Positions 12,302-46,356 are shown, counted from the first letter of the stretch. The stretch is 56,711 nucleotides of DNA from a virus (IMGVR_UViG_3300024259_000040:1-56711); one strand, 5' to 3'. The notes: generated by a model from the sequence alone, not told the origin. Numbers and translations are program-made.

Positions 12302-12565
12302 ATGAACATGACGACCCTCAAGCAGGACATCGCCCGCAAGATAGCCACTTACGGCGAGGCGCCCGTGACGCTATCGACGCTCAAGGCGGCCGGCGCGTCC
12401 GACGACCCTGACGCTGCCGGCAAGCGGTTGTGTGCCGGGACGGCCTGGACCTACGTCCACGACGGCTATAACGAGATGCTGGTAATTCGCCCGACGCCGC
12501 CAAAGAAGCCGATAAAGGAAAAGATTATCGACGCCATCACCCCGAACGGGAGTACCCAGCCATGA
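12302..12565 (+). CDS. Hypothetical protein
   Basis: AGGAG SD. Confidence 0.6.
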   Translation: MNMTTLKQDIARKIATYGEAPVTLSTLKAAGASDDPDAAGKRLCAGTAWTYVHDGYNEMLVIRPTPPKKPIKEKIIDAITPNGSTQP

Positions 12566-14052
12566 AACGTCGCCTCTTCGCTCTTATCGCCCTCTTCGCC
12601 CTGGTCGCCGCGCCTGCGTTTGCCGCTGACCAGTATAACCCCTACGTCGGGCCGACCAACAACGACTGGACGATCACCGTCCTCGATACGGATATAGGCA
12701 CGTCCTGGGAGGTTGTCTCTGCCGATACGGGCTTCACGCCGATGGCGACCGATACGACCGTCCTGGTGGCGTGGGCCGCTCAGAGCAAGCTCGACTCGCT
12801 CCGCACGGGCAACGACGGCGTCGGCGATGTGACCGGCGTGTTTACTATGGGCAGCACAGCCGACCAGTCGATCAACGCTAACTTCTTCCAAGATCGCGGC
12901 ACCGGCACGACCAGCTATGTCACGGCTGTCTTCGGCACGGCAGCGTCGCCGCGCTATAACGCTTACCTGACGCGCCAGCAAGATACCGACCTTGCCATGG
13001 GCGCGTCGTGGACGATCGCCGCGTTCGCGGGCGGGTGGAGCGCCGGCAACCCCGGCGTCGGCACGGTCCAGACGGTTTTCTCGGCGTTCGGATCGGCGGG
13101 TAGCAAGCAGGAGGTGCGCGTCGATTTTATGCCCGGGGGTTATATCACCGGCTACGTGACCGACGACGGTGGCTCGACAGCCGACTCCCTCGTCTATCCT
13201 TACGATGTCTACAACTCAGCCTATCATTTTATCACTTTCTCGTGCGCGTCCAGCACGTTACGGCTCCGCGTCGATAACGCTACGGCGCAGACCAAGGCGC
13301 TCGATAAGGCGCTCAACCCCCTCAATCAGCTCGATACGCTCACGGTCCTGGCCGCCAGCGCCGGCACTAATGACTTCCGGGGGCGCGTCGATGAGCTGTG
13401 GATCTTCGATGACCGCACCGCCGTCAATGCGGAGATGGAGGGTTACCTGTGGGACCGCTTCCTCTCAGCCAGCGGCTCGACGCCGGATAGTGCCGCCGTG
13501 CGCCTGTCCGGCCTGCTGGATGCCGACACGACCTACATAGAGAACCACAAGGTGATCGTCCCCCTGGCATCAGCAGGAGCATCCTCGGCTGACTGGACAG
13601 CGTTCGAGGCGGCCTGGCTCGATACGGAGGAGGTCAAGCCGCTCCTGGTCTTTACCGGCGGCGCCTCCCCTCGATCAGCGCTGCTCGACTCGATCCCCGG
13701 CGGCGAGCTGCACTACCCCGTCGCCCAGCGCTATTTCGGTAAGTATGACCGCCCGTTCCTCGGCGGCGTCTCGGCGGCGCTGACCGGCGACACGGACACG
13801 CTTCATGTCGAGCTGCGCGTCTACCCCGATTGGGCCGATGGGCGCGACAACACGGACGGTTTCTATGTCGTGTGGCGTGATCGCCTGACCAACGCCGCCC
13901 CACGCGCCGAGGCGCGCCTCAACGTCGATCTGCCGAAAAGCTCACTCCTGCAGGCATGGTCGAAGGGTAACACCGGCGCGCCCAACATCAACGGCGCTAT
14001 GCGTATCACGATCGACGGCAAGCGACACGAAAAGAAGGGGTGGTTCAGGTAA
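12562..14052 (+). CDS. Signal-peptide-bearing protein with a LamG/concanavalin-like domain (probable virion-surface protein)
   Basis: MKRRLFALIALFALVAAPAFA|; YHFITFS...LRLRVDN...FRGRVDELWIFD is LamG-like; 8 D(S/T)-hydrophobic sequons. Confidence 0.75.
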   Translation: MKRRLFALIALFALVAAPAFAADQYNPYVGPTNNDWTITVLDTDIGTSWEVVSADTGFTPMATDTTVLVAWAAQSKLDSLRTGNDGVGDVTGVFTMGSTADQSINANFFQDRGTGTTSYVTAVFGTAASPRYNAYLTRQQDTDLAMGASWTIAAFAGGWSAGNPGVGTVQTVFSAFGSAGSKQEVRVDFMPGGYITGYVTDDGGSTADSLVYPYDVYNSAYHFITFSCASSTLRLRVDNATAQTKALDKALNPLNQLDTLTVLAASAGTNDFRGRVDELWIFDDRTAVNAEMEGYLWDRFLSASGSTPDSAAVRLSGLLDADTTYIENHKVIVPLASAGASSADWTAFEAAWLDTEEVKPLLVFTGGASPRSALLDSIPGGELHYPVAQRYFGKYDRPFLGGVSAALTGDTDTLHVELRVYPDWADGRDNTDGFYVVWRDRLTNAAPRAEARLNVDLPKSSLLQAWSKGNTGAPNINGAMRITIDGKRHEKKGWFR

Positions 14053-14104
14053 GGTAGGATAACGCTCTCCCGTTCATTGTAATACCAGCCCGAAAGCCCG
14101 AGCC

Positions 14105-14371
14105 ATGAAGACTTTTAATGTCCCAGCGGCAGTTGCTGCGTCCACGCGCCGAGCGCGCATGAATAACGCGACTGTCGCTTTGGTATTGTATCCCGAGATG
14201 GCCGAGACGATCGACGGCGAGCTGGGCTGGTCCGACAACGACGGTTACGAGTTCGACCTGAAAGGTCTGTCGGCTCTGCACGACCGCGCCTTCATAGTAG
14301 GCTTCCTGCGCTATGTCGCCGATCAGTTCGAGCAGGCCGACGAGGACGACCTACGCACGGAGGACGACTGA
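14105..14371 (+). CDS. Hypothetical protein
   Basis: ORF with acidic C-terminus. Confidence 0.55.
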   Translation: MKTFNVPAAVAASTRRARMNNATVALVLYPEMAETIDGELGWSDNDGYEFDLKGLSALHDRAFIVGFLRYVADQFEQADEDDLRTEDD

Positions 14372-14372
14372 T

Positions 14373-15438: not shown

Positions 15439-15448
15439 GAAGGATATT

Positions 15449-18016: not shown

Positions 18017-18084
18017 CTAAACAGCTTACCCATATCTTACCTGTGGCCTGCCCGACCACTCCAGTCGAGCAGGCTCTTTCTATT

Positions 18085-20124
18085 ATGGCGCCGAAGATAA
18101 GACACTTCCACGACGACGACCCTGACGACCTGGACGGGATCGCCCAAGAGGTCAACGAGGAGACGCAACGCGGTATCGGCGCGTGTGGTAGCTGGCGTGC
18201 AGAGGCGCGCACGGCGCTGCGCTACTATCGCTCCGATCAGTACCGCCTCCGCAAGGGCGCTGACCTGCACCGTATACGCATGGTGGCCAACTTCGTGCGG
18301 CGCGATGCCGACAAGAAGGTCAACAGTATCCTCGACAGCGAGCCTATCATCACGCCGCGCGGGCGCCGTCCGAAGTTTCAGGACATGGCGCAGATGCTCA
18401 TACAGATACTCGACTGGACGCGCGACGAAGAGGAGAACTACGAGGCGGACCTGGAGGATGGGACGACCGACTGTGTCCACATGGGCGAGGGCGTCCTTTA
18501 CGAGGGCTGGAACCAGGACGCCGATGAGGGGCGGGGGATGCCCGAGACGAAGTGGTTCGATAGTCGGTATGTCGTGTGGGATGATGGGGGACGCGACTGG
18601 CAGCGCGACGATGTCGAGTTCGTCGTCGTCCTCGAACACCTACCGACCAAGCGTATCCAGAAGATGTGGGATCTGGAGGACGAGCCAGAGGCCGAGGGGC
18701 TGGAGCTGTTCCTTACCTCTGCACAGATGGACCGCCTGGCCGCCCGCACGGGCGGGGCATCCAATGACGTAACGACCAACGGCGTAAAGAAGGCGTGGGT
18801 CAAGCGGCGCTGGAAGAAGCGTAAGAAATATGAGCTGAAATTCTTTCAGAGTGGCGAGCCGGCGCAGTTCGAGGAGGGCGGCGATCAGTTCGACATGACG
18901 CCCCAGCAATATGACGAGCTATCACCCGACCAGCAGGTAGGTATCCTGCAGATAAGCATCCCCGAGGAGGAGCTGTGGGAGACGGTCGTCTGTGGCGACG
19001 AGGTGCTGGAGCATCATATCAGTCCCTTCTGCGCGACGCAGGGCGGCCATGGCCTCTACCCGTTCGGCTTCTTCCAGGGCATACGCCTACGCGACGAGAG
19101 CCGCGCGCGCGGTGAGATAGGCTTTCTTATCGGCGTCTCGGACGTGCGCAACGAGGTCATCTCGATGATGCTCGACCAGGCGTTCCTGGCCAATAGCGGT
19201 TACATGGGCGTCGTCGCCGGGTCGATGGACCCCAACGAGCGCAAGAAGGTCAACCAGATCGGCCGGCGGTTCCCGCTGGTGATCGAGACACTTCAGGGTA
19301 TGCCGGGGCCGAGCTGGCAGGGCATCAACCCCTCCGGCACCAACGTCTTTCAGCAGATCCTACCCATCATCGACAGCATACAGGACCGCGAATCGGGTCA
19401 TGGACCGTTCGATCGTGGCGAGCTGGTTTCACAGGAATACTCCGGTCGCGCGATACGCGCCATCCAAGCGGCCGCTGACCAGCTCGGCGTCGCCCTACGC
19501 AAGCATATCGAGTCTGGAATGAAGCGTATCACGCTCCTGCGGCTCCACAACATCAGTCAGTTCATGCGCGGCAACCGCGTGGCCGACATCGTCAACAAGG
19601 ATACCGGCAAGGAAGAGTCGATCTACATCGGCGACAATGCAATGGAGATCATGGTCACGCATGGCCTGGAGGAGTCGCAAGACCCCCTGACGGGCGAGCC
19701 GATCCTTCTCGACCCACAGACGGGCGAGCCGGCGCGTATCCTGGCGCTCAACGACGACGTGACACGCGAGAATATTTTCAACAAGATACGGCTCAAGCTG
19801 GACACCGACAGGGAGAAGAACAAGGTCGAGCGCGAGGAGGACGCCCGCGAGGTGCTGGCACAAGCTGGTCCCGGGGCGCTCAACTGGTTCCTCCAGCAGA
19901 AGGGACTCGATAACGAAGATACGCTCATGGGCGACCTGGAGAAGTATAACAAGGGGCTGCAGTATGAGCAGCGCCTGACCGCCCTGCAGGAGCAGTATGG
20001 CGCCGATCCCGAGGCGGCCCTGGAGATGCTCGAACAGGCGTTCGCTGGCGGTGGACAACAGATAACCCAACAACCGGCCATGGGCGGCACGCCTATCGTC
20101 GGACAGCCCGAAGGGGGGATGTAA
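18085..20124 (+). CDS. Portal protein (P22-like)
   Basis: WRAEARTALRYYRSDQY...NFVRR; GEG; YPFGFF...GEI; SGRAI; size and position before scaffold and capsid. Confidence 0.85.
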   Translation: MAPKIRHFHDDDPDDLDGIAQEVNEETQRGIGACGSWRAEARTALRYYRSDQYRLRKGADLHRIRMVANFVRRDADKKVNSILDSEPIITPRGRRPKFQDMAQMLIQILDWTRDEEENYEADLEDGTTDCVHMGEGVLYEGWNQDADEGRGMPETKWFDSRYVVWDDGGRDWQRDDVEFVVVLEHLPTKRIQKMWDLEDEPEAEGLELFLTSAQMDRLAARTGGASNDVTTNGVKKAWVKRRWKKRKKYELKFFQSGEPAQFEEGGDQFDMTPQQYDELSPDQQVGILQISIPEEELWETVVCGDEVLEHHISPFCATQGGHGLYPFGFFQGIRLRDESRARGEIGFLIGVSDVRNEVISMMLDQAFLANSGYMGVVAGSMDPNERKKVNQIGRRFPLVIETLQGMPGPSWQGINPSGTNVFQQILPIIDSIQDRESGHGPFDRGELVSQEYSGRAIRAIQAAADQLGVALRKHIESGMKRITLLRLHNISQFMRGNRVADIVNKDTGKEESIYIGDNAMEIMVTHGLEESQDPLTGEPILLDPQTGEPARILALNDDVTRENIFNKIRLKLDTDREKNKVEREEDAREVLAQAGPGALNWFLQQKGLDNEDTLMGDLEKYNKGLQYEQRLTALQEQYGADPEAALEMLEQAFAGGGQQITQQPAMGGTPIVGQPEGGM

Positions 20125-20127
20125 ATC

Positions 20128-21044: not shown

Positions 21045-21079
21045 GGCGCGTGCAAGTCACGGCGAAAGGACGAGAAACA

Positions 21080-22118: not shown

Positions 22119-23249
22119 ATGTCAAACGATGCCTCTACCTCCAAAAGTTATCCCATCGGGTCGGCTGATCCGCTGACGGAGGAAATTTGGAGCCAAAAAA
22201 CGCACATCGAAGCGGAGAAGCTCAACTTCTTCAACCGCAAAGGGCTTACCGCAGAGGACAAGGGCGAGGAAGATCCGTTCAAGCGCCCGGGCGGCCCGCC
22301 CATCGTGACCAAGTCGGAGTTCGGGAAGAAAGCCGGGCAGAAGCTCAACCTGCGTATGCGCCAGCAGCTCAACCGGGGTATGCGCCTGGACGAGGATGGC
22401 GCCACCACCCTCACCACCTACACGCGCGGCACCAACTACGCGGTCGGCTACGAGGAGGCGCTGGTCTACCGCGATTGTCAGGTGTGGCTCGACAAGCTCA
22501 AGCACTTCGTCGCGATGGACTCGCCGGACATCAATCAACACCGCACCTCCATCGAGATGGAGCCGGAGATGAAGGCGGCCCTGTCGCAGTGGATCACCCA
22601 CAACGAGGAGGAGATTTACGTCGATGGTATGCTCGACGGGTCGGCTTACATTGCTCAGCAGGACAGCCTCACCTCGGCGGTGACGCACCCGCACACCTAC
22701 CGTATCAGCGGCGCCAATGCCGTCGGCGAGATCGGCGAGACGCACATCATGTCGGCGGTCGAGCTGCGGCGTATCATGCGCTTCTGCATCGTCAAGAAGC
22801 TCAGTCCCATCGACGTGGATGGCGAGGAAGCGTTCGTCGTCCTACTGTCGTCGGCGCTCGTCTCGCAGCTCCTCAACGACGAGGAGTTCCAGCGGGTCGT
22901 TTCTCAAGCCGGCGCACGCGGGGCGGACAACCCCCTCATCAGTGGGTCCATCGGCAAGTTCTACAACCTCTACCTGTTCCAGTACGAGCGCAACAGGACC
23001 GTCACCTCGTACGACAATGTCGAGCAGGTGATGATCCTGGGATCGAACGCGGTGGCTGTGGGCTACGGCTCCGAGCCGCGCTTCCTCGTGCGCAACGAGG
23101 ACGGTTATGGGGATCGGTTCGGGCGGGGTATCGCTCGCATCATCGGCGTCGGACGGATGGATTTCGCTGACAAGGATGATACCGATCTGGTCAACCAGTC
23201 CTCGGGCCTGTGGCAGGTCTACAAGGACCAGGACGAATTCGACGGATAA
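22119..23249 (+). CDS. Major capsid protein (N4 gp56/DUF4043-like)
   Basis: EIWS...FF...PIVTKSEFGKKAG...GYEEAL; NPLISGSIG; ILGSNAVAVGYG. Confidence 0.85.
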   Translation: MSNDASTSKSYPIGSADPLTEEIWSQKTHIEAEKLNFFNRKGLTAEDKGEEDPFKRPGGPPIVTKSEFGKKAGQKLNLRMRQQLNRGMRLDEDGATTLTTYTRGTNYAVGYEEALVYRDCQVWLDKLKHFVAMDSPDINQHRTSIEMEPEMKAALSQWITHNEEEIYVDGMLDGSAYIAQQDSLTSAVTHPHTYRISGANAVGEIGETHIMSAVELRRIMRFCIVKKLSPIDVDGEEAFVVLLSSALVSQLLNDEEFQRVVSQAGARGADNPLISGSIGKFYNLYLFQYERNRTVTSYDNVEQVMILGSNAVAVGYGSEPRFLVRNEDGYGDRFGRGIARIIGVGRMDFADKDDTDLVNQSSGLWQVYKDQDEFDG

Positions 23250-23338: not shown

Positions 23339-23914
23339 ATGTTTCGGAAACTGACCGCGCTTCTCATTGTGGCGCTGCTGGCCGTCCCGCTCCTGGTCGG
23401 CCCGGCCGACGCCGGAAAAGAGAACCGCCTGTGGGAAAACCGGTATCAGAACCGCGCCGGATGGGCGCGCGCTGATACCATCGGGATCGGCTGGGGGGCT
23501 GGCACGATGGACACCAATCTCGACACGCTGGCCGCTGCGACCTCTGACACGACCCTCGCCTTCGATATTGAGGGCTGTTCGGCCATTGTCGTGACGGTGG
23601 TCCAGAAAGAGGTGATCGCCGGGTCGAACGTGACCTATACGGTTCAGGTGAGCGACGATCGCACCAACTGGACCTCTATCACGCCGACCTTCTCGAAGGC
23701 GTCCTCGTCCGCCACCTTCATCCGCCAGGTCGTCTATGCCGAGGCGGTCCCCGACTCGATTGTGGGGAGCATGTTCGGTAATAGCGAAAACCGGGGGATC
23801 ATCAGCACGGCGAGCTATATGCGTGTGATCGGCAACCTGGGGTATATGACCGGCACGGACTCGACGATGCACAACTACATCGTCAAGAAGAAGTGGCCCC
23901 TCGATCCTAAGTAG
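23339..23914 (+). CDS. Signal-peptide-bearing beta-rich protein directly after the capsid (decoration/cement candidate)
   Basis: AGGAG SD; MFRKLTALLIVALLAVPLLVGPADA|; VQVSDDRTNW strand motif; 5 sequons. Confidence 0.7.
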   Translation: MFRKLTALLIVALLAVPLLVGPADAGKENRLWENRYQNRAGWARADTIGIGWGAGTMDTNLDTLAAATSDTTLAFDIEGCSAIVVTVVQKEVIAGSNVTYTVQVSDDRTNWTSITPTFSKASSSATFIRQVVYAEAVPDSIVGSMFGNSENRGIISTASYMRVIGNLGYMTGTDSTMHNYIVKKKWPLDPK

Positions 23915-38500: not shown

Positions 38501-41500
38501 CGCCCGATGACAAGAATCTGCGCATGAATTGGGGTAAGCTGGTGTCGGGTACGAACACGATAGAAGTCTTTCTTGAAGATAATTGGGATTCGCCTATCGG
38601 CACGGTCTTACGTCAGGCAGGCGTCAGAGATGCCGAGGATGTGCAAGGATTCATTGATGCCGTTGCTGATCGCAACAGTCTTTTTGGTAAATACCCGACC
38701 AGTCTGGAAGCAGAAGCCGACAAGGCTTATCGCGAGCGCACCCTATCTTTCCCATCGCCAACGCAGCGACCGGGCGAGACGGGCGACGAGCAGGCGTTGA
38801 GCCGGTTGATGCCCATGCGCCTGGAAGCGCCGACCGGAGAGAGCGCCACAGCCGCCGCGCGCGTCTCTGCGACGGGCATCAATCCCGTCTCTATCATCGA
38901 CCAGATGGGAAAGGCTTTGGAGGTATTGGGGGCGAAAGTGCCGTTTCGTGTGGGGCGCATAGCGCAGAAAGCCAAGGGCATTTTTAAGGTTGCTCCCGAG
39001 GTGATACGCCTGCGCACCGCTAACGATATCACGACCGCCTCGCATGAGCTGGGGCATGGTGTCGAGAAGGCCGTCTTCAGTGGAATCGGCGAGGAGACAT
39101 GGGGGATTCTACCCCAACAGCATCAGATTGAGCTGGAACGCCTGGGGCGCGCGCTCTATGGTGACAAAGAGCCGGTGGCCGGCTATAAGTCCGAGGGGTG
39201 GGCCACCTTCATGCAGCTCTGGCTGGTGCGCGACAAGGAGACACAGCGCCTGGCGCCGACGCTGACGGACTTCTTCGAGAACGCCTTCCTTCCTGCCTTA
39301 CCGGAATTCCAGCGCGAGGTTAATAAGACGCGCGAACTCATCACCAATTGGCGCGAGGCGGGAGCTGTCGGTCGCGCGAAGGCGATGGTGACGGACCCAG
39401 CCTCAATTAAAGAGCGCACGCGCAGGGTAGCAAAGAAGGCGAAAGGGGCTGTCGATGAGATTAAGATGGCCATGGTCGATATGGGCCACCCACTCGATCA
39501 GTTGGCGCAGGCGGCTGGGGAGAAGATGGGCCGACCACTGCGGAATAGTGAGAACCCCTATACGATCCTGACGGCCCGCCGTATGACGGGGGCGCGCCTG
39601 GTGCGTTACATGGTTGAGGACGGGATGCTCGATGTGGCGGGCAATAAGGTGGGCGCTCCTCTGGCTGACATACAGTCGCTCGTCAAGGGCAAGGGCGATA
39701 ACTTCACGCTCTACCTGTGGGCGCGCCGCGCCCTGGCTATGTGGAACGATCCGCAGGGCGAACGTAATCCCGGCTTAGATAAAGAGGACGCCGAGCAGAT
39801 CGTCCGCGAATTAGAGACGCCAAAGTTCCAGCTCGCCGCCCAAAAGGTCTACGATTGGAATGATGGTATACTGAACTATGCAGCCCAAGCATCGCCGTCA
39901 CTGGCCGAGATGGTCGAAGCGATACGAAAGCGCGACCCAGGGGCATATATCCCCCTACGTCGAGAGTTTGAGCAGTTGACCTCCATGTACGATAAGAGCC
40001 GGGGGCAGGGGGGGAGTCCTATCGCGCGCCTGAAGGGATCAGGACGGCGTATCATCGACCCGTTCCCGACGATGATCTCTAATGCTGATCGCATAGTGTC
40101 GGCGGCGCACAAGCGCGAGGTGCTGGATGCCGCTATCCGACTGAGTCAGGTCGAGGGATTGGGCCATCTTATCGAGGAGGTGCCGCGCAACCAGGTGCCG
40201 GCCGCGCAGGTCAAGGTGGGCGACATCGTCAAGCGCCTGTGGAATGAGCAGGGGCTGGTTGTGGGCGTTCCCGAGACGGGCGACGAGGGGCCAGCGGCCC
40301 TATCGGAGGATGCGGCCGATCAGATACCCGACGAGATATTGGACGAAGCTATAACCTTTTTTATGCCGGCGTCGTTCCCCAAGGGCGAAGATCCAATTAT
40401 TCCACATCGCCAGGACGGTACGACGAAATGGTTCCAGGTGGACCGCAACCTCTGGCGGTCGCTTTCGGGTGTCGATATCTACCGCTTGCCGAAGATGGCC
40501 GATCTCTTCCTGGGCGGCCCCGCGCGCGTCTTCCGTGCCGGCACGACCGGCCTGCGAGCTTCCTTTAACCTGCTGTTCAACCCCGAGCGCGATTTACCGA
40601 CGTTTATCGCCAACACGCAATCGGGCGCGCGCATGGACCAGGTCACGATGGCCTATATGTCCGCCATGCGCGACGCGACGATGGGCAAGGTGGGGATGGA
40701 GAATGAGTGGTTTGACCTTTTCGTGCGGCAGGGGGTCGAGATGGCACAACCCCTTGGGCAAGACACGACGCCCACTAAGCGCGCCGCGCGCGAGCTGTTT
40801 GAGGGGAAAGCTGTCCGCGTGATTGATCCGCGTAACTGGCTCGACTTCTACCGCGATCTAATCTCTACTCCCGAGTCGGTGCCACGCATCGCTGAGATGC
40901 GCCTGGTCGCTAAAAAGATCGGATGGACACCCGGGCAACCCTTATCCCTCGACCAAGCACTTGAGCTGACGGTCGCTGGTAAGCAGGTGACGACAGACTT
41001 TACGGCCGCCGGATGGCTCGCGCGCACGATCAACGCCATGACGCCGTTCCATAATGCCGCCATCCAGGGGCCGCGCGTGACCCTACGCCGCATGAAAGAA
41101 GACCCGCTGACGGTGATCCCGCGCATGCTCGGCTTATTGACTATCCCAACGCTCCTGGCCTGGTGGGATAATAAGGATGAGGAGTGGTTCACCCAGCTCC
41201 CCTGGCGCGAAAGACTTTTAAACTGGCACATACCTATAGAGATGCCGGACGGTAGTAAGGAGATCGTTCGTATCCCCCGACCGTTCGAGGTGGGGCAGAT
41301 ATTCGCGGCTCTCCCCGAGCAGCTCTGTGATAGTTGGTATCGGCAAGATCCCAAGGGAATGGAGGAGTGGTTCTCGACGGTAGTGGAGACAACCGTTCCC
41401 CCGGGGCCATGGGAGAGTCCCGTTCCCAAGCTGGCGGCCGAGCAGTTGGCTAACTGGCAATTCTTTTGGGAGCGCCCCGTCGTCCCCGAGGGAGAGAAAG

Positions 41501-42420
41501 ACCACCCACCACCCGAACAGTTCAACGAGTACACGTCTCGCGCGGCGATCGTGTTAGGGGATATGTTCGGCCAGTCGCCGCGCCGCATCGACCATGCCAT
41601 ACGGGCGCTGATGGGTGGCGTCGGTGGTGATGTATCGCGCGGCCTGTTCGGGCGCGGCGAGGAGGGCGAAGGTAATATCGTCCAGCAGGTTGAGGAGTTC
41701 CTTTCCGGCGAGGAGGGCGAAGGTAATATCGTCCAGCAGGTTGAGGAGTTCCTTTCCGGCGAGGAGGGCGGGACCAGCGAGTTATCTGATTTGCCGATCT
41801 TCGGTCGCCAGTTCGTGCGCGGTGGGCAGTCGCCGGCGCGCAGTCAATCAACGGACGATCTGTATACAGCCTACGAGAAGGCGGTCCAGAAGTCGCAGTC
41901 TATTCGCCATCCCGAGACAAAAGCAGAGCGCCAGCGACGACTCCTCTTGATGGACGCGACGCGCGCCCTCGGCGCCCTGTTTGCCGTCCGCAGGGGGAGC
42001 GATAGTAAGGAGGCCCAGCGCCGCCTGAACTCCACCATAGACGAGATAGCGCAGGCAGCCCTCAACGAGTCGGAGATGGATGTGAGCGAGGATGATCGGG
42101 AGAAGTTCGCCGAGCGCCGCAAAGATGCCGAACTGGAAGAGGCGGTCGCCCAGGCGCGCGCCGGACGACTGGACGAGCATGACCGTCGTCGCGCGGTCGC
42201 CCGCGCGCACGCACAGGTGCAGGTGCTGGACAAGGGCGACGCCCGCTGGAAGCAGGCGCACGACGTGGTCAAGACGTTGACGGCCGACTATGGCGGGTTC
42301 GATAAGTACCGCCAGGTGCTGCAAAAGCAACGCACGGAGTCGGGCAAAAGCTCGGCGCTGACGGCGTTCAACAGCTCACTGAAGACATACCGCAAGCAAC
42401 TGCGCAAAACGAGCCGATAA
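32590..42420 (+). CDS. Giant polyvalent virion protein (3276 aa) with an N6-adenine-MTase-like domain and a C-terminal LPD38-like domain
   Basis: GYFPTP...VLEPSAGKGNI...IVMNPPF...LKPGGRLV (about 37012-37510); ASHELGH; RIPRPFEVGQIF...IDHAIRALMGGVG near the C-terminus. Confidence 0.8.
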   Translation: MASRFAGLTLTSPREEEEERPSRSRFAGLTLAPAPSIPEPPTPALPPSDLRPEQEAFLSGDMTMSPPSMPRVVQAGGGTSVVPTAPAQPGPSYTDQMRTEGRPLTMGGSSYGEKPNALTRGFVSGFAQQNPNALGAVAEAFGHLVQSPTGAVVLGTLAGGSPTGGIGQGIQMSAGVGERLKKASKKLRSYRAGQTYQTTGLSLKDIEDLDTALTYAGETVGQGVASTLAPLAGGAVGALVAGPGGAIAGAAGPSYVLNMGDLYDSLIDEKIPAARAAEIAAYGAIPLAALDAAGSLGILKTITGNVKRTLIKNMAKRIAAKAAKGAASEGGTEATQQIVQEVIRDFASDRDIPLDEQAMNVLDAAIGGVLTGGAMAGAGGVRPDKATDHTRAVEQVNQRLQEKITPTIPFREANEQDGNLGTAPDVLGYEERAFPQEMRERFQQDEAKAREKAQGDTARDALNQAAANIGLTEEQITGLDRASLAEAVHVHEQWQARDISNNEATEQMQALFAAAGVTQEEEAAPIQRVQSVFQEGQFAAPAVQAEPEPAPPAVEETTDEQATEIVPPKERPTLDVRGKRLELRYPKGNEAATQGSIDDVLLANMGFRYDKATKTWFGALDEERQQFAERLAAGEVMEFGGPELLRSMEQKDAARASVRKNFLDSHGQVTFQAPVRRGIGDRKGFAIFSPSTSEPGKWQATLFDEEGPVSHAVEADYDALLKEYQDDYDIDLGGAKVAEAPQQRAEETPAEPDFEGMTSLPEPRTGGPAEKLYQGIEEGTDEEKAGAVRGVHEQVIQDLTMRGRILAHVTARLKDPDLKEKERENLEAEKNTLERDVADEYGEYGNDFGLDAEEKLRAHVDQSVNQAPTKERVVADMSLEEFKATRKPPNFSSGTGEATTYAEKIAKYRAMGDEKVQGAATGNMLADKVEAQAKKLFEVEQNADSAPTVTQDAEPSTPIAAEVAATEVDEAPARQPKALMVRDDGEGGTEVIGELVMPDYAPGVPQDAEPTTEGEEAPTTTATEPWQPTPEATPEPAPAPEPAEATPVATDTGVTLNENTERGTIELSFAGKPSWKVRKRLRESTPKWHWSKTKRLWYNKATDETRALAQEIAGGMAATPETPAAVGETTDRLGDIVRRMSLVTRGENERRPSQGEMRELRDAGLAEETPDHSFFLTDKGQEVLEPFKAARPAETTGEAPTEAPQGPTPEEARATRDTAQRTKAAGQLRKVAESVRTKAEVKMGQDRQTNTARRANMAANAEADAARELQVAETMVNVADAIESGQAPHLAGVRAKTHIQLLDQYLGNAKWDSGQDKGERWEDNKQRPVTEEDLEFVRDPRPRVWSSTLRELADAVKGQRGTKEAARKVRDRAGSQGDREKITLNTDSDRDAVETLLAIARKMKKNGKEPRGMHSIENDIGDEFKNWSRFKSIGINDARDMRDALRELMELRGELKKEDPVKAAERALVGRKIPGYFPTPSDLSDRLVEEAGIQPGDKVLEPSAGKGNIADAIKERHPDADLDAIEPVEDLRKILESKGHRLAGRDFTEHEGDYDKIVMNPPFEDGQDIDHVRRAYDQLKPGGRLVSIMSEGPFFRNDRKATTFRDWLEGVGGFSESLPEGSFKSAERPTGVATRMVVIEKAEETTTEAPQETVAAEPIAAEDGDTNTAENYRTQIDGAETAFAVERIQEEIEEAGKGETARWGDAEMQHLWQVAESKRLDLEQQEARESEDFAQQRLVEREKRYNAILDAFQRGEEVTVATHTRATILSSPDQLRLTKNGEVQMPEGKNWVTLTDEQVENLARQVGYDPDEGAAGTTEPPTPPGPTTPAAALAELATLKSLDDDARAWFEQAIERQPDDYNELLQSARELNETAFAEKGKALFGEDTMDLPGMPQRQMPETPLSTEGGKGLEGTALAGAVEDVKVEEAQKKQGSLFTTTFPDEMTVNQAITYGGGLAASEIDRIKGAVGTPDDKNLRMNWGKLVSGTNTIEVFLEDNWDSPIGTVLRQAGVRDAEDVQGFIDAVADRNSLFGKYPTSLEAEADKAYRERTLSFPSPTQRPGETGDEQALSRLMPMRLEAPTGESATAAARVSATGINPVSIIDQMGKALEVLGAKVPFRVGRIAQKAKGIFKVAPEVIRLRTANDITTASHELGHGVEKAVFSGIGEETWGILPQQHQIELERLGRALYGDKEPVAGYKSEGWATFMQLWLVRDKETQRLAPTLTDFFENAFLPALPEFQREVNKTRELITNWREAGAVGRAKAMVTDPASIKERTRRVAKKAKGAVDEIKMAMVDMGHPLDQLAQAAGEKMGRPLRNSENPYTILTARRMTGARLVRYMVEDGMLDVAGNKVGAPLADIQSLVKGKGDNFTLYLWARRALAMWNDPQGERNPGLDKEDAEQIVRELETPKFQLAAQKVYDWNDGILNYAAQASPSLAEMVEAIRKRDPGAYIPLRREFEQLTSMYDKSRGQGGSPIARLKGSGRRIIDPFPTMISNADRIVSAAHKREVLDAAIRLSQVEGLGHLIEEVPRNQVPAAQVKVGDIVKRLWNEQGLVVGVPETGDEGPAALSEDAADQIPDEILDEAITFFMPASFPKGEDPIIPHRQDGTTKWFQVDRNLWRSLSGVDIYRLPKMADLFLGGPARVFRAGTTGLRASFNLLFNPERDLPTFIANTQSGARMDQVTMAYMSAMRDATMGKVGMENEWFDLFVRQGVEMAQPLGQDTTPTKRAARELFEGKAVRVIDPRNWLDFYRDLISTPESVPRIAEMRLVAKKIGWTPGQPLSLDQALELTVAGKQVTTDFTAAGWLARTINAMTPFHNAAIQGPRVTLRRMKEDPLTVIPRMLGLLTIPTLLAWWDNKDEEWFTQLPWRERLLNWHIPIEMPDGSKEIVRIPRPFEVGQIFAALPEQLCDSWYRQDPKGMEEWFSTVVETTVPPGPWESPVPKLAAEQLANWQFFWERPVVPEGEKDHPPPEQFNEYTSRAAIVLGDMFGQSPRRIDHAIRALMGGVGGDVSRGLFGRGEEGEGNIVQQVEEFLSGEEGEGNIVQQVEEFLSGEEGGTSELSDLPIFGRQFVRGGQSPARSQSTDDLYTAYEKAVQKSQSIRHPETKAERQRRLLLMDATRALGALFAVRRGSDSKEAQRRLNSTIDEIAQAALNESEMDVSEDDREKFAERRKDAELEEAVAQARAGRLDEHDRRRAVARAHAQVQVLDKGDARWKQAHDVVKTLTADYGGFDKYRQVLQKQRTESGKSSALTAFNSSLKTYRKQLRKTSR
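41655..41770. repeat. Exact 51-bp in-frame tandem duplication (GEEGEGNIVQQVEEFLS x2)
   Basis: Units start at 41655 and 41706, with a partial third at 41757. Confidence 0.9.
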
Positions 42421-42464
42421 AGGTATAGAGGTCGATTAGCGACCTTCACTCATCACTCCTACCC

Positions 42465-42510: not shown

Positions 42511-42525
42511 CTGGAGCTGCAGACC

Positions 42526-43131
42526 ATGAGATACCCGCAGACACTTACACTCGCCGCCCTGGTCGCCCTCGTCGGCTGTGGCCCTAACCTCCAATCGTTC
42601 CAGCAGGGTTTCGATAGCCTGGCGGCTACGTCGGAGGCGTTGACGACCGCCACGGCCACCGCCATTGATGTCGCTGCCGCTACCGAGGAGGCGGTCGCCC
42701 TACAGACGGCCCAGGCGCACGCCAGCGCCAACCGTATCCTCTCACAGGTCGAGCGCACGGACCGGGCGACCCGCCGGGCGCTGCGCGCCGCCGCACAGAA
42801 AGCGCCGACCAAGATCGTCAAGGCATTGCCGACCGATCTGGCGCCGGTGACGACGGAGATACGGCGTGTGCTGACCCATCAGAAGGACGCGCTGGGGCAA
42901 CTGGACAAGCAGCTCAAGGTATATCGCTCGGAGACGACCCGCCGCCTGGCCGATGTGACGGAAAAGCTCCGGCTGGCCAACGAGTTGATACAAACGGTCA
43001 ACGCTGGCCTACAGGGACGGTCGCCGCTGGAGGAGGGCGCGCCGGCCGGTATCGCTGGTATCGTCAGTCTCATCCTCGGTTTCGTTCTGCGCGGCTTCTA
43101 TTCTAAAAAGATGGAGGAATTATCCGCATGA
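42526..43131 (+). CDS. Lipoprotein with a C-terminal TM helix; candidate unimolecular spanin
   Basis: Lipobox LVGC at residue 18, coiled-coil body, GIAGIVSLILGFVL followed by a basic tail. Confidence 0.65.
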   Translation: MRYPQTLTLAALVALVGCGPNLQSFQQGFDSLAATSEALTTATATAIDVAAATEEAVALQTAQAHASANRILSQVERTDRATRRALRAAAQKAPTKIVKALPTDLAPVTTEIRRVLTHQKDALGQLDKQLKVYRSETTRRLADVTEKLRLANELIQTVNAGLQGRSPLEEGAPAGIAGIVSLILGFVLRGFYSKKMEELSA

Positions 43132-43538
43132 TCGACATGGCTAACCTACTCATCGTCCTGACCAAGCTGGCGTTCGTCGCGACGGTCCTGACCGTCGCTC
43201 TGGAGCAGATCTTCGACACGCGCTTTTACCAGAAGTGGCTCGGCAAGGGTATTGACGGCACGCCGTCGCGCTTCTTTCAGGTGTTCGAGCTGCGTCCCTG
43301 GATCTCCAGCGCTGTCGGTGTCTTTCTGGCCTGGAAGCTGCAACTGGCCGCTATCGCCGAAGGCACGTCGGCCGCGTACATACCGATCCCCGACGGCCTG
43401 GAGTCTGTCCCTGATGTGCTGGCGATCGACTTCATCCTGACGGGTCTGATCATCGGCGGTGGCACCAAGGCGGTCAAGAAGGTCGCCAAGCAGTTCGCCG
43501 CCACCAAGAAAGACCTGACCGGCACGCTCACTCAATAA
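43128..43538 (+). CDS. Holin-like membrane protein (about 3 TM)
   Basis: Hydrophobic segments, ILTGLIIGGG, basic C-terminus; coupled to the spanin candidate. Confidence 0.6.
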   Translation: MIDMANLLIVLTKLAFVATVLTVALEQIFDTRFYQKWLGKGIDGTPSRFFQVFELRPWISSAVGVFLAWKLQLAAIAEGTSAAYIPIPDGLESVPDVLAIDFILTGLIIGGGTKAVKKVAKQFAATKKDLTGTLTQ

Positions 43539-43590
43539 ACAACCCCTGCGGACGCCCGACCGCTCTCTCGTCTGTGAGGATTCTTTAGCT

Positions 43591-46356
43591 ATGCTGCGCT
43601 TACTCCTTCCTATCGTCGCTCTCTTGGCGCTCACGTCGGACGCCCTGGCCCTGTCGCAGCTCTCTGCGCGTAAGGTCTATGGCCGTGAGATCTTCACCTC
43701 GGCCGACAAGAACGCCGATGAGACGTACACCTTCGACGCTATCAACGAGGTGCGCGCCTTCTTTCCCGGCACCGACTCGCTGAAGATCACCCGCGTCGTA
43801 ACGGATACGCTGCACGCGCGCACGGCCAGCAATCTGACGGTCATATCGCGGGACACTCTACGCGCGACGAACACGCATTTCACGGCGATACGGGGCGACT
43901 CGCTCAAGGGCGACATAGGGTCGAACACCTCACCGACGCTCGACACACTGCGCGTAACCAACCTCCACACGATCTTCTCCTCGGGCAGTAGCTGGTCCAC
44001 GCGCCTCGACTCGCTCGACTACCTGCACGCCGACTCGATAGCCGTCGATAGCCTGACGGTCGCCAACAAAGCGGAATTCCTCGGGGCGATGGATGTGGCG
44101 GGGGCGCTGACGGCGACGGGCCTCATCACGGCGAACGGTGGCTTTACCTCTGCTATCGGCGCCACCTTCTCGGGAGGCCTAACGGCGCAAACGCTCTCTT
44201 CGGACGCTACGACCGAGACGACCAGCGGCACTACCGGTGCTATCCATACAGACGGTGGCCTGGGCGTCGCCAAGGATATTTATTTGGGTGACGATCTGCT
44301 GATAGCGACAGGGGGGGTGCTTAATTGGAACGCCGATAATGTGACCCTTACGCATTCTGATAAGAAATTGACGATGCTGACGGCAGGGGAGACAAATTTC
44401 GTCATCCAGAGTGCTGAATCGGAAGATGCGCTAGTCGAGTTTCGGGGCGATGGAACAGGCACCGAGTACTCCATTGGGCGCGTGGATGGCGGTGACGAGG
44501 ATAAGTTTTGCATCGGTGTTGCGGGTGGGACCAACTACATCTGGATGGACTCGTCGGGGAACCTTGGGGTGAAGAACTCGTCCCCTGGTGCAGCATTGGA
44601 CGTTACGGGAGCAGCGTTGATCTCTTCGACGCTCGGCGTCACGGGCGTTGCTACCTTCACGACGACCATCTCTGCGGCAACCGGATCGACCATTGGGGAT
44701 CTGACACTGGCGAACGGATCTATAACGTCGTCCGGTGCGGCGATTGATTTCGGGGCGGAGAACCTCTCGACGACCGGCACCCTGGGCGCAGGGGCGACCA
44801 CCGTTACCGACCTAACGTCCACCGGCAACACGACCATCGGCAACGCGACGGGAGACGCGCTGACGTTCCATCCGAGCGCATGGACGCTGACGAATGCGGT
44901 GACGATCACAGGGACATGGACAGACCTTGGTATAGTCACGACAGCGGATATCAATGGCGGGACGCTGGATGGCGTGACGATTGGTGGCGCGACTCCCGCA
45001 GCGGCGACGGTGACGACGCTGAACACCACGGGTGCAGTCGTCCACAACGAAGCGGGTGCGGATCTGGATTTTCGCGTAGCGGCAACGGGCGCAACCAATG
45101 CGCTGTTTGTGCAAGGTAGCGACGGCGCCGTCGGCATCGGCACGGCGAGTCCCTCTGCGCGGCTGCACGTTATAGGCGTTGATGCGGTTACTGCCATTTT
45201 TGGAACGGCTGTTTCTGAAGCACTGGAGGTATGGCCGGGGTCCAGTAATGCGGGACCAGCGTTGATGTATGATGATGCCTCCGCCATACGCTTCGGGACG
45301 CACTCAGCTTTTGGATCGGCTGGCTGGAGCGAGAAGATGCGCCTCGACGCAAGCGGCAATCTAGGCCTGGGGGTTACGCCGGAAGCGGCACCTTACGCAC
45401 CGTTTACAGGGTTACACGTTGGCGGCACCTCTTATATCGCCAGTGAGACAACGGCTGCTGCTGGGGCGCAGTTATGGTTAGGGCAGAATGTCACCAGCGA
45501 TACCGACGGTAATAGCGAGTACGTTGTCAATGACGAAGCAAGTCTTATCCAGATGAAAGATGGTCAAATCTTAGCTTTTACTGCTGCTGCATCCACGGGC
45601 GACATCGCCTGGGGAACGGCGAAGCTGACGATTGACAATGCTGGACAATTAGACTCACGGGGCGATGTTGCAGCGGGTTATCAGGCGTTCTTTTTTAACG
45701 ATGGCAATAACGCTAATCGTTATGGGATTGAAGTTCAAGCTGGTGCGGATGACGCATCTGGTGATACTTATTACTTGAATTGTAAAGATGGTGACGGCGG
45801 TTCTGTAGGTTACATCTGGAACACCAGCACCACTTTCCAACTCGTAGATGCGTCGGATAGGCGTATCAAAGATTCCATCGTAGACACTGAGCTTGAGGGA
45901 ATCGAAACGATCAAGAAGCTCAAGGTGCGAGACTTCAACAAGTTCGGCCATCCGGTCAAAGCTGGTTTTGTTGCACAGGAAGTAGCACAGGTTTTCCCGA
46001 AAGCGGCGGCAGGCGATTCGACCGCGACGCGCATGGTCATCACGCCAGATACCACCGACATGCGGCCTATCATCACGCAGCGTCTGAAGGAAGAGATTAC
46101 CGAATACATCCTTGGCGACTCCACTGTCGTAAGTGATACCATGGTCGTCGCCATCCCTGATACGACCTACGAGGCGCGGCAGGATACGACCATTGAACCG
46201 GTGATGATGGGCGTCGCCTACTCGGCGTTCGTGCCGCTGAATGTCAAGGCGATTCAGGAACAACAAGAGATCATCGAATATCAGAATCAGCGCATCGCCA
46301 ACTTAGAGGCGACGGTGGCCGACCTGGTCAAGCGCGTAACTAAATTGGAGAAATGA
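43591..46356 (+). CDS. Tail fibre with a C-terminal intramolecular chaperone (peptidase S74) and an N-terminal signal peptide
   Basis: MLRLLLPIVALLALTSDALA|; G(N/A)(L/V)G(V/I/L) fibre repeats; SDRRIKDSI...GFVAQEV...VKAIQEQQ plus coiled coil. Confidence 0.88.
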   Translation: MLRLLLPIVALLALTSDALALSQLSARKVYGREIFTSADKNADETYTFDAINEVRAFFPGTDSLKITRVVTDTLHARTASNLTVISRDTLRATNTHFTAIRGDSLKGDIGSNTSPTLDTLRVTNLHTIFSSGSSWSTRLDSLDYLHADSIAVDSLTVANKAEFLGAMDVAGALTATGLITANGGFTSAIGATFSGGLTAQTLSSDATTETTSGTTGAIHTDGGLGVAKDIYLGDDLLIATGGVLNWNADNVTLTHSDKKLTMLTAGETNFVIQSAESEDALVEFRGDGTGTEYSIGRVDGGDEDKFCIGVAGGTNYIWMDSSGNLGVKNSSPGAALDVTGAALISSTLGVTGVATFTTTISAATGSTIGDLTLANGSITSSGAAIDFGAENLSTTGTLGAGATTVTDLTSTGNTTIGNATGDALTFHPSAWTLTNAVTITGTWTDLGIVTTADINGGTLDGVTIGGATPAAATVTTLNTTGAVVHNEAGADLDFRVAATGATNALFVQGSDGAVGIGTASPSARLHVIGVDAVTAIFGTAVSEALEVWPGSSNAGPALMYDDASAIRFGTHSAFGSAGWSEKMRLDASGNLGLGVTPEAAPYAPFTGLHVGGTSYIASETTAAAGAQLWLGQNVTSDTDGNSEYVVNDEASLIQMKDGQILAFTAAASTGDIAWGTAKLTIDNAGQLDSRGDVAAGYQAFFFNDGNNANRYGIEVQAGADDASGDTYYLNCKDGDGGSVGYIWNTSTTFQLVDASDRRIKDSIVDTELEGIETIKKLKVRDFNKFGHPVKAGFVAQEVAQVFPKAAAGDSTATRMVITPDTTDMRPIITQRLKEEITEYILGDSTVVSDTMVVAIPDTTYEARQDTTIEPVMMGVAYSAFVPLNVKAIQEQQEIIEYQNQRIANLEATVADLVKRVTKLEK

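What the first reader, a model, noticed from the sequence alone, without database searches (positions are those of the whole stretch)
12562..46356. Virion-surface proteins with Sec signal peptides and dense O-glycosylation sequons: possible periplasmic host-glycosylation route for phage structural proteins
Seen in the sequence: three beta-rich genes have good SD sites and classic n/h/AxA signal peptides. They are the LamG-like protein (12562, APAFA|), the protein right after the major capsid (23339, PADA|) and the S74-chaperone tail fibre (43591, DALA|). Hand counts of D-(S/T)-(A/L/V/I/M/T) give 8 in 496 aa, 5 in 191 aa and 15 in 921 aa. Structural proteins without signal peptides have far fewer: nozzle 0 in 540, capsid 1 in 376, portal about 2 in 680, giant protein about 7 in 3276. 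Established: this tripeptide is the acceptor sequon of the general O-glycosylation system of Bacteroidota, which acts on exported proteins, and tailed-phage structural proteins normally fold and assemble in the cytoplasm. Inference: the phage may export its fibre and decoration proteins so that the host glycosylates them, then attach them to particles at or after inner-membrane disruption, producing glycan-coated virions. No phage glycosyltransferase was recognised, which would fit use of the host machinery.
Basis: partly seen in the sequence, partly recalled or inferred. Interest (0 to 1): 0.9.

Follow-up and report, generated by a model that had tools for sequence, protein, structure and literature searches.

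The report
Exported, sequon-rich phage morphogenesis proteins
An uncultured marine tailed phage and its relatives put secretion signals, and an excess of a known bacterial sugar-attachment motif, on three unrelated late proteins including the tail fibre, which suggests these parts mature outside the cytoplasm where tailed phages are normally built.

Summary
The three genes start at the first ATG after an in-frame stop, behind SD-like sites, and encode n/h/AxA signal peptides. The D-[ST]-[ALVIMT] counts (8, 5, 15) are exact. Pooled they give 28 against 10.9 expected from shuffles, while the reversed motif gives 11 against 10.8 and the other 54 ORFs give 40 against 42.1.

Signal peptide and sequons are co-conserved. 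All 19 full-length homologues of the LamG-like protein, all 5 syntenic post-capsid proteins and 3 of 3 fibre N-domain homologues carry a leader. Seven conserved Asp columns of the LamG family are sequons. Over 70 leader-bearing proteins the enriched residues are D, then S over T, then L/T/I/V/A/M. This is the published Bacteroidota sequon.

The mature domains of two of the families show no detectable homology.

SD use, sigma-70-type promoters, lack of the Bacteroidota Q-rule and a Phycisphaerae-binned relative all argue against a classical Bacteroidota host. Seven of the 15 fibre sequons lie in the self-cleaved S74 chaperone. Virion incorporation and glycosylation remain untested inferences.

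The parts
12562..14052 (+). LamG-like, two-jellyroll protein precursor (496 aa, P0001). Leader is residues 1-21 (nt 12562-12624). It has 8 sequons, of which 7 sit at family-conserved Asp columns.
   Evidence: AF2 model pLDDT 79.3. Foldseek finds laminin-G/neurexin-type and phage LamG jellyrolls. PF13385 is precomputed on homologues.
23339..23914 (+). Small beta-sandwich protein precursor encoded directly after the major capsid gene (191 aa, P0002). Leader is residues 1-25 (nt 23339-23413). It has 5 sequons, 4 of them invariant in 5 syntenic homologues.
   Evidence: The Atlas gives viral look-alikes and a Bbp16-like lead only. The AF2 model is poor (pLDDT 54.5).
43591..46356 (+). Tail-fibre-type protein precursor with a C-terminal S74 intramolecular chaperone (921 aa, P0003). 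Leader is residues 1-20 (nt 43591-43650).
   Evidence: The C-terminal half resembles fibres of marine phages at 25-31% identity.
43774..44055 (+). Fibre N-terminal domain with 8 D-S/T-L/I motifs (residues 62-155). It is shared, together with the leader, by fibres that have other tips.
   Evidence: 8 observed vs 1.55 expected in residues 21-160.
45853..46356 (+). S74 chaperone-protease region (S755-D-R-R-I-K760 motif) and the released C-terminal fragment, which carries 7 sequons.
   Evidence: 7 observed vs 0.79 expected in residues 755-921.
42526..43131 (+). Lipoprotein (lipobox LVGC) with a C-terminal membrane helix. This is a unimolecular-spanin-like lysis protein, two genes upstream of the fibre gene (the 43128-43538 gene lies between).
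   Evidence: The assignment is by architecture only, with no family hit.
43128..43538 (+). Two-helix membrane protein, holin-like, directly upstream of the fibre gene.
   Evidence: No family hit.
22119..23249 (+). Major capsid protein (context; no leader; 1 sequon vs 1.2 expected).
18043..20124 (+). P22-type portal (context). In relatives L001-L003 the LamG-like gene follows it directly.

Best explanation
A lineage of temperate, short-tailed marine phages makes at least three unrelated beta-rich late proteins as Sec pre-proteins: a LamG-like protein, the small protein encoded after the capsid gene, and an S74-type fibre. After export and leader cleavage, their mature parts meet a periplasmic machinery that reads D-(S/T)-(L/T/I/V/A/M). 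This is most likely a host general O-glycosylation system of the Bacteroidota type. The sequons are kept by selection in the globular domains.

Shown: the leaders, their conservation, and the motif excess with its exact residue specificity.

Inferred: export, glycosylation, and the fate of the proteins. For the fibre the most likely fate is attachment to finished particles when the membranes are breached at lysis, because holin-like and spanin-like genes lie directly upstream. For the other two proteins, particle decoration and action on the cell envelope are about equally likely.
For: 1. Starts and leaders.
2. Motif excess of 28 vs 10.9, with 0 of 1000 shuffles reaching it, a flat reversed motif and flat E/N/G variants. 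The other 54 ORFs give 40 vs 42.1.
3. Replication in relatives with 28-40% capsid identity. In L001-L003, 8 leader-bearing ORFs give 40 vs 11.4, and a ninth missed by my threshold gives 8 vs 2.9. The remaining 30 ORFs give 28 vs 26.8.
4. LamG family: 63 of 75 HMMER hits have a leader-like N-terminus and 50 of those 63 are individually enriched (p<=0.05). Six hits that share only the LamG domain and have no leader give 11 vs 14.8.
5. Conservation: in the 19-sequence alignment 7 of 16 conserved Asp columns are full sequons in at least 14 sequences. In the post-capsid family D62-T-L, D70-T, D139 and D174 are invariant.
6. Independence: a profile-profile comparison of the two families aligns only the leaders.
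7. Fingerprint over 70 leader-bearing proteins (25,230 aa; related sequences, so descriptive only). Position 1: D 3.4x, E 0.9x. Position 2: S 3.9x, T 3.0x. Position 3: L 5.1, T 4.2, I 3.7, V 2.6, A 2.3, M 2.2; every other residue <=1.8 except Cys (4 counts). This equals the published sequon, including Glu being disfavoured and Ser being slightly preferred over Thr (PMC12871550, passages and section 7 read). That paper also states that excess of the motif in non-cytoplasmic proteins is found mainly in Bacteroidota.
8. The fold alone does not give the excess. Ten Planctomycetota LamG proteins give 24 vs 27.9.
9. Exported S74 fibres with a leader and a conserved ~130-aa N-domain exist in Bdellovibrio (PMC10769870, passages read). 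Leader-bearing proteins are annotated as MS/MS-detected virion proteins in Cellulophaga phage phi18:3.
Against: - No glycan, export or virion data exist for any member.
- Host markers do not fit Bacteroidota: SD use, sigma-70 promoters and no Q-rule, set against PMC3155529 and PMC5837995.
- The only genome-collection relative is a 5.8-kb, low-coverage contig binned in a Phycisphaerae MAG. Leader-bearing proteins sampled from five Phycisphaerae genomes show no excess (27 proteins, 30 vs 29.4).
- In some homologues the Asp is kept where the Ser/Thr is lost, for example 3 of 19 at column D208. This hints at a structural role for the Asp.
- In the AF2 model 4 of 8 sequons sit at loop-to-strand junctions, as a strand-capping motif would.
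- The fibre's N-domain motifs recur every 10-16 residues, like a structural repeat.
- Seven fibre sequons lie in the discarded chaperone.
- Four cultured Bacteroidota phages show no leader-bearing, sequon-rich structural proteins, and phi18:3 gp085-087 are sequon-poor.
Confidence: 0.5

Rival explanations
1. The proteins are exported, and perhaps glycosylated, but are not virion parts. They act on the cell envelope: receptor masking, superinfection exclusion, keeping progeny from sticking to debris, or a surface adhesin fibre of the Bdellovibrio MAT type. They carry sequons simply because exported proteins in such a host do.
For: Exported accessory genes embedded in structural modules are well known (lambda lom, T5 llp, T1 cor; recalled, not from a call). 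The fibre has the MAT layout: leader, conserved N-domain, fibre, then an S74 or other tip (PMC10769870). No test here places any of the three proteins in a particle. The LamG gene sits far from the head genes in the window (12562 versus portal at 18043).
Against: Positions are fixed across relatives with 28-40% capsid identity: directly after the portal (LamG) and directly after the capsid gene. P0003 is the only fibre-type or receptor-binding-type protein recognised in the window. Its leader travels with the conserved N-domain while the tips vary, as in virion fibres. phi18:3 shows that leader-bearing proteins can be found in particles.
Confidence: 0.25
2. The leaders are real, but D-S/T-hydrophobic is not a glycosylation site. 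It is a structural element such as an Asx/ST cap at strand starts or a fibre repeat, or the target of another process such as a chaperone, protease or other modification.
For: The Asp is more conserved than the Ser/Thr at some columns. Several sequons sit at loop-strand junctions. The motif is periodic in the fibre N-domain. Host markers are non-Bacteroidota. Sampled Phycisphaerae exported proteins show no excess.
Against: The excess appears in three families, and the two compared by profiles share no detectable homology in their mature parts. It is absent from LamG domains without leaders. It reproduces all three positions of the known sequon, including the exact set of six third-position residues. 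The reversed tripeptide is flat.
Confidence: 0.18
3. The N-terminal hydrophobic segments are not export signals. They are uncleaved membrane anchors that hold cytoplasmic assembly intermediates at the inner membrane, or they result from mis-called starts.
For: SignalP was not run. P0002's c-region (GPADA) is less classical than the others.
Against: No alternative start lies upstream, and the next in-frame ATG lies 56-60 codons downstream (P0001, P0002) or is absent within 100 codons (P0003). The h-regions are short (12-16 residues). Basic n-regions and small -3/-1 residues are conserved in 19 of 19, 5 of 5 and 3 of 3 homologues.
Confidence: 0.05

Closest known systems
General O-glycosylation system of Bacteroidota (sequon D-(S/T)-(A/I/L/V/M/T); PMC12871550)
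   Same: The same tripeptide with the same residue preferences at all three positions. The excess is confined to leader-bearing proteins.
   Different: The substrates are phage late proteins. The phage's SD use, promoters and leader cleavage sites do not look Bacteroidota. No glycan has been shown.
Cellulophaga phage phi18:3 gp085, gp086, gp087 (NC_021794)
   Same: These are leader-bearing proteins of a short-tailed marine phage. The record annotates them as virion or tail proteins from MS/MS.
   Different: Their leaders obey the Bacteroidetes Q-rule by eye (my crude predictor placed Gln at +1 for 2 of the 3). They are sequon-poor (3 vs 9.7). No sequence relation to the window's proteins was sought. 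I did not read the original paper.
Bdellovibrio MAT (mosaic adhesive trimer) fibres (PMC10769870)
   Same: Leader, then a conserved beta-rich N-domain of about 130 aa, a long trimeric fibre, and an S74 self-cleaving chaperone or another tip. This shows that S74 fibres can mature after export.
   Different: These are cellular surface adhesins of a predatory bacterium, not phage genes. Homology of the N-domains was not tested. No sequon excess has been reported.
Exported proteins of Porphyromonas gingivalis phages (PMC10367356)
   Same: Phage genes with Sec leaders adapted to the host's secretion rules.
   Different: That paper reads capsid-protein 'leaders' as prohead-protease targets and the rest as host-modifying proteins. 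It does not mention glycosylation (0 occurrences of 'glycosyl').
Glycosylated mycobacteriophage virions and Sec/YidC-inserted coat proteins of filamentous phages (recalled, not read here)
   Same: Glycan-bearing phage particles exist, and virion proteins that cross the inner membrane exist.
   Different: As I recall, mycobacteriophages use their own cytoplasmic glycosyltransferases. Filamentous phages assemble at the membrane and are not tailed.

Membership tests
Sec / signal peptidase I signal peptide | Basic n-region, hydrophobic h-region of about 7-16 residues, small uncharged residues at -3 and -1 | tested here: met
   Read directly from the sequences. A heuristic scan gave the same result. 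SignalP was not available.
Sec / signal peptidase I signal peptide | Leader conserved in homologues and supported by the start codon | tested here: met
   19 of 19, 5 of 5 and 3 of 3 homologues carry a leader. Each gene starts at the first start codon after an in-frame stop, behind an SD-like site.
Sec / signal peptidase I signal peptide | Cleavage and export actually occur | not testable with these tools
   This needs N-terminal sequencing or fractionation.
Substrate of Bacteroidota-type general O-glycosylation | D-(S/T)-(A/I/L/V/M/T) in the soluble part of a non-cytoplasmic protein, in excess over chance | tested here: met
Substrate of Bacteroidota-type general O-glycosylation | Host belongs to Bacteroidota (no SD use, TAnnTTTG promoters, Q-rule leaders) | tested here: not met
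   SD sites occur in 40-71% of genes against 6-17% in four Bacteroidota phages. Sigma-70-type promoters are in excess and TAnnTTTG is not. Gln is at +1 in 7 of 73 leaders. The host itself was not identified.
Substrate of Bacteroidota-type general O-glycosylation | Glycan attached to the Ser/Thr | not testable with these tools
   This needs glycoproteomics.
Peptidase_S74 intramolecular-chaperone fibre | PF13884 match over the curated cut-off | tested here: met
   28.1 bits against a cut-off of 22, residues 755-805.
Peptidase_S74 intramolecular-chaperone fibre | Ser-Lys dyad in an S-D-x-x-x-K motif | tested here: met
   S755-D-R-R-I-K760. The motif is as given in PMC10769870.
LamG / concanavalin-A-like jellyroll | Fold or profile match | tested here: met
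   Foldseek finds neurexin/laminin LG domains and phage LamG proteins at probability 1.0 but TM 0.2-0.36. PF13385 is precomputed on 3 homologues. P0001 itself has no Pfam hit at E<=0.01.
Capsid decoration / cement protein | Gene next to the capsid gene, small beta-sandwich, binds the capsid lattice | tested here: inconclusive
   The position is conserved in 4 phages. The fold model is poor. The Atlas gives a Bbp16-like lead at TM 0.52. Binding was not shown.
Bdellovibrio MAT fibre family | Leader + conserved N-domain + fibre + S74 or alternative tip | tested here: inconclusive
   The architecture matches. Sequence homology to MAT N-domains was not tested because no MAT sequence was at hand.

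The most novel reading that the evidence does not exclude
A marine bacterial lineage outside classical Bacteroidota (it uses SD sites and sigma-70-type promoters and lacks the Q-rule) has a general O-glycosylation system that reads the same D-S/T-hydrophobic sequon. Its short-tailed phages build their outer parts (fibre, capsid-adjacent protein, LamG protein) from periplasm-matured, host-glycosylated proteins that join cytoplasmic particles only when the inner membrane is breached at lysis.
Probability: 0.2. Interest if true: 0.95.

Novelty: new variant of a known kind. Interest (0 to 1): 0.8.

Why it matters
Tailed phages are taught to fold and assemble entirely in the cytoplasm. A conserved export signal on a tail fibre and on genes inside the head module would mean that some virion parts take a second, periplasmic route, if these proteins do end up on particles. 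That route would give them access to host glycosylation. This would bear on receptor recognition, particle stability, immune and defence recognition, and phage engineering.

The motif fingerprint could also serve as a host marker read from phage genomes alone. Here it conflicts with three other host markers. That conflict either widens the known range of this glycosylation system or shows that the motif has another meaning. Both outcomes can be tested.

Tried and rejected
- Capsid binding: a prediction of capsid protein with mature P0002 gave no verdict (score 0.00, controls not run). It counts neither for nor against binding.
- Host search:
  - Capsid, portal and P0001 have no tblastn match in 50,697 phage records.
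  - The portal alone found nothing in IMG/VR.
  - The P0001 alignment found nothing in genome contigs.
  - The portal alignment found one 5.8-kb contig.
  - 401 Planctomycetota genomes hold only LamG-domain matches, with no full-length P0001.
  - 8 of 401 Phycisphaerae genomes hold distant capsid matches (E 1e-22 to 7e-8), without a consistent leader-plus-sequon neighbour.
  - The metagenome scan gave 5 contigs of at most 8.5 kb, with no host flanks.
  - Cluster look-ups gave no names.
  - TerS and integrase matches in phages are spread over many hosts.
  - No tRNA was found.
  - I could reach no genome handles outside Planctomycetota, so other phyla were not tested.
- P0002 had no word-based homologue but itself. 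Its relatives were found by synteny instead.
- Circularity: the cut methylase at the right end does not continue at the left end.
- Shaft depletion: the fibre shaft's lack of sequons (0 vs 4.5) is not evidence of avoidance. Leaderless shaft-repeat proteins are also low (5 vs 9.9, 3 vs 4.5, 2 vs 5.5).
- Literature: searches (top 15 listings and abstract starts only) showed no paper on exported or host-glycosylated structural proteins of tailed phages. Searches found nothing on this sequon outside Bacteroidota.
Fig. 2A and the supplements of PMC12871550, which show which other clades have the motif excess, could not be seen.

Full report
WHAT THE WINDOW IS. The window is a whole 56,711-base contig with 61% G+C. 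Near-identical DNA occurs in seawater and marine metagenome runs: 9 of 15 listed runs hold at least half of the sampled words, and two of those may be the source.

It is a temperate, short-tailed phage. The recognised genes are:
- small terminase, and a large terminase interrupted by an intein
- P22-type portal
- HK97-type capsid protein
- SU10-type adaptor and a nozzle-like protein
- proteins of 1608 and 3276 residues
- tyrosine integrase and CI-type repressor

Nearly all genes lie on the + strand. The record is rated linear and 71% complete. Its right end cuts a C5-methylase gene that does not resume at the left end. Capsid, portal and P0001 have no match among 50,697 deposited phage records.

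Each of the three genes begins at the first start codon after the upstream in-frame stop, behind an SD-like site. Each encodes a basic n-region, a 12-16 residue hydrophobic core and small residues at -3/-1.

Against 2000 composition-preserving shuffles per protein, the three leader-bearing proteins give:
- 8 vs 3.0 (p=0.006)
- 5 vs 0.9 (p=0.0005)
- 15 vs 6.9 (p=0.001)

Pooled, they give 28 vs 10.9 +/- 3.1, and none of 1000 shuffles reaches 28. The reversed tripeptide is flat at 11 vs 10.8. Replacing Asp by Glu, Asn or Gly, or the third residue by a non-hydrophobic one, removes the excess. The other 54 ORFs give 40 vs 42.1.

REPLICATION OUTSIDE THE WINDOW. A full HMMER search with P0001 found 75 cluster representatives.
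- All 19 full-length homologues (30-50% identity) begin with a leader.
- By a hydropathy criterion, 63 of the 75 hits are leader-like, and 50 of those 63 are individually enriched at p<=0.05.
- Of the 12 hits without a leader, six look like N-terminally cut family members.
- The other six share only the LamG domain. Those six give 11 vs 14.8.

Three IMG/VR contigs (L001-L003) carry a P0001 homologue directly after the portal gene. Directly after the capsid gene they carry one or two small leader-bearing proteins homologous to P0002, at 24-29% identity. Capsid identity to the window is 28-40%.

In these three loci I examined 39 ORFs. Eight classed as leader-bearing give 40 vs 11.4. A ninth, the L003 P0001 homologue with a long n-region that my threshold missed, gives 8 vs 2.9. 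The remaining 30 give 28 vs 26.8.

For the fibre, three database proteins share its N-terminal domain (P0152, P0080, P0083), and all three have a leader. Their tips differ, and only P0152 carries a recorded S74 (PF13884) match. Their D-S/T-h motifs fall at matching places within residues 60-155. Three other hits share only shaft repeats. They have no leader and no excess.

THE MOTIF IS UNDER SELECTION AND MATCHES A KNOWN SEQUON. In the 19-sequence P0001 alignment, 16 columns are at least 80% Asp. Nine of them are followed by Ser/Thr in at least 15 sequences, and seven are full sequons in at least 14. In the P0002 family, 7 of 16 invariant columns belong to four sequons. A profile-profile comparison of the two families aligns only the leaders, so their mature domains show no detectable homology.

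Over 70 leader-bearing proteins the position-specific ratios are as follows. The proteins are related, so this is descriptive.
- Position 1: Asp 3.4, Glu 0.9, all others at most 1.5.
- Position 2: Ser 3.9, Thr 3.0, all others at most 1.4.
- Position 3: Leu 5.1, Thr 4.2, Ile 3.7, Val 2.6, Ala 2.3, Met 2.2. Everything else is at most 1.8, except Cys with 4 counts.

This is the sequon of the Bacteroidota general O-glycosylation system. A 2025 review describes Asp as almost obligatory, Glu as not tolerated in B. fragilis, a slight preference for Ser, and a hydrophobic third residue. It states that excess of the motif in non-cytoplasmic proteins is found mainly in Bacteroidota (PMC12871550; passages and section 7 read, figure not seen).

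The fold alone does not produce the excess. Ten Planctomycetota LamG-domain proteins give 24 vs 27.9.

WHAT THE PROTEINS ARE.
- P0001 models with mean pLDDT 79. Its neighbours are laminin-G/neurexin-type jellyrolls and phage LamG, tail-fibre and receptor-binding proteins, at low TM scores.
- P0002 models poorly (pLDDT 54.5). The Atlas lists viral hypothetical proteins and, as a lead only, the Bbp16 fold.
- P0003 has the S74 domain with the S755-D-x-x-x-K760 dyad. Its C-terminal half resembles fibres of Pelagibacter, Synechococcus and Roseobacter phages at 25-31% identity. It is the only fibre-type protein recognised in the window.

The fibre's sequons are very unevenly placed:
- 8 in residues 21-160 (exp 1.55)
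- none in the 594-residue shaft (exp 4.5)
- 7 in residues 755-921 (exp 0.79)

Residues 755-921 are the fragment the S74 protease releases. The mature fibre as a whole is not enriched (8 vs 5.9).

Directly upstream of the fibre gene lie two membrane proteins. One is a lipoprotein with a C-terminal membrane helix, which is spanin-like. The other has two helices, which is holin-like. An M15-type endolysin candidate is at 4044-4712.

THE HOST DOES NOT LOOK LIKE CLASSICAL BACTEROIDOTA.
- SD use. An SD core lies at -18 to -5 in 20 of 41 window genes, 5 of 7 in L001, 6 of 13 in L002 and 8 of 20 in L003, against 15-21% of background windows. The same script gives 3 of 44 for Bacteroides phage B40-8, 3 of 49 for Cellulophaga phage phi38:1, and 2 of 33 and 7 of 42 for two Salinibacter phages, all at background. 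Bacteroidetes, including Rhodothermus and Salinibacter, are reported to lack SD sites (PMC3155529, passages read).
- Promoters. Sigma-70-type promoters are in excess in the immunity region (9 vs 3.6 +/- 2.2, one 11/12 match). TAnnTTTG is not in excess (5 vs 7.3). That this is the Bacteroidota -7 consensus is recalled, not from a call.
- Q-rule. Gln follows my predicted cleavage site in 7 of 73 leaders, against an average of 71% in Bacteroidetes (PMC5837995, passages read).
- Nearest genome relative. The only match in 185,579 species genomes is a 41%-identical portal on a 5.8-kb, 1.3x-coverage contig binned in a Phycisphaerae MAG, which is weak evidence. The phage sigma factor's region 4 weakly matches a Planctomycetaceae-specific model, below its cut-off.

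Leader-bearing proteins sampled from five Phycisphaerae genomes show no motif excess (27 proteins, 30 vs 29.4). The same pipeline gives 2.7-fold for the window. The host therefore remains unknown, and the motif fingerprint conflicts with the other host markers.

COMPARISON WITH CULTURED PHAGES AND EARLIER NOTES. In B40-8, phi38:1 (first 50 kb) and the two Salinibacter phages, I found no leader-bearing, sequon-rich structural protein. The phi38:1 S74 fibre has no leader and gives 5 vs 5.1.

Earlier notes of this scan report leader-bearing, sequon-rich fibres in several phages assigned to Bacteroidota. They point to Cellulophaga phage phi18:3. I confirmed that its gp085-087 have clear leaders followed by Gln and are annotated as MS/MS-detected virion or tail proteins. 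They are sequon-poor (3 vs 9.7).

Bdellovibrio MAT fibres show that leader-bearing S74 fibres with a conserved N-domain can mature after export (PMC10769870, passages read). Porphyromonas phages encode leader-bearing proteins that obey the Q-rule (PMC10367356, passages read).

Three literature searches found no description of exported or host-glycosylated structural proteins of tailed phages. I saw only the top 15 listings and abstract starts for each.

VERDICT. Export of the three proteins is very likely; I put it at about 0.85. Their sequons are read by some machinery, and I put O-glycosylation at about 0.5. It is the best single explanation because the residue fingerprint is so exact and appears in several families, two of which lack detectable homology in their mature parts.

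Whether the proteins end up on particles is open. It is most plausible for the fibre. It is the only recognised fibre, its N-domain is conserved, and lysis genes lie next to it. Recalled and not tested here: P22 tailspikes can be added to finished heads in vitro.

The claim of a Bacteroidota host is not supported. No glycosyltransferase was seen in the window, but the contig is incomplete.

Noticed in passing
window 7450-9855 (+): The large terminase (801 aa) is interrupted by an intein. Terminase_6N matches residues 68-176 and Terminase_6C matches 620-748. Between them are Hint_2 (over cut-off) and Intein_splicing (below cut-off) matches.
   Followed up: no
window 32590-42420 (+): A 3276-residue protein carries an LPD38 domain (residues 2864-3020, E 1.4e-27) and a weak methyltransferase match (1496-1589). 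It follows proteins of 1608 and 342 residues of no known family.
   Followed up: no
window 42526-43538 (+): One protein is a lipoprotein with lipobox LVGC and a C-terminal membrane helix (unimolecular-spanin-like). It is followed by a two-helix holin-like protein, directly upstream of the fibre gene. An endolysin candidate lies far away at 4044-4712 (phrog_465, E 2.7e-11).
   Followed up: partly
window 10061-10432 (+): A 123-residue protein begins MQRRSVLKGLGLALLAP. This resembles a twin-arginine (Tat) export signal. It has no family hit and no sequons.
   Followed up: no
window 10883-11533 (+): A phage-encoded FliA/WhiG-like sigma factor. Its region 4 also weakly matches a Planctomycetaceae-specific sigma subfamily, below cut-off.
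   Followed up: no
window 2803-3600 (+): A polyamine aminopropyltransferase (spermidine-synthase)-like gene in a phage, with Pfam over cut-off and NCBIfam below cut-off.
   Followed up: no
window 56216-56711 and 1-674: The right end cuts a C5 cytosine methylase gene after 165 codons. The in-frame continuation at the left end shows no methylase match. The contig is therefore truncated rather than circularly closed (CheckV 71%).
   Followed up: yes
L021 2416-3852 (G567:C150): In a Phycisphaerae genome, a distant capsid homologue is followed by a leader-bearing protein (MKRFLIGLLALAATAAVVVPAFA...) that has no sequon excess (5 vs 5.2). A leader on the post-capsid gene may be older than the sequon excess.
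   Followed up: no
L016 (Salinibacter phage M1EM-1): Many genes are preceded by a CCCCGCT-like motif just before the start codon instead of an SD site.
   Followed up: no
window 52993-53805 and 53982-55313 (+): Two leaderless proteins have a mild sequon excess (3 vs 0.4, p=0.006; 5 vs 2.0, p=0.045). The first is Pro/Gln-rich and low in complexity, and the second has Cys-rich zinc-ribbon-like repeats. Chance among 57 tests is possible.
   Followed up: no
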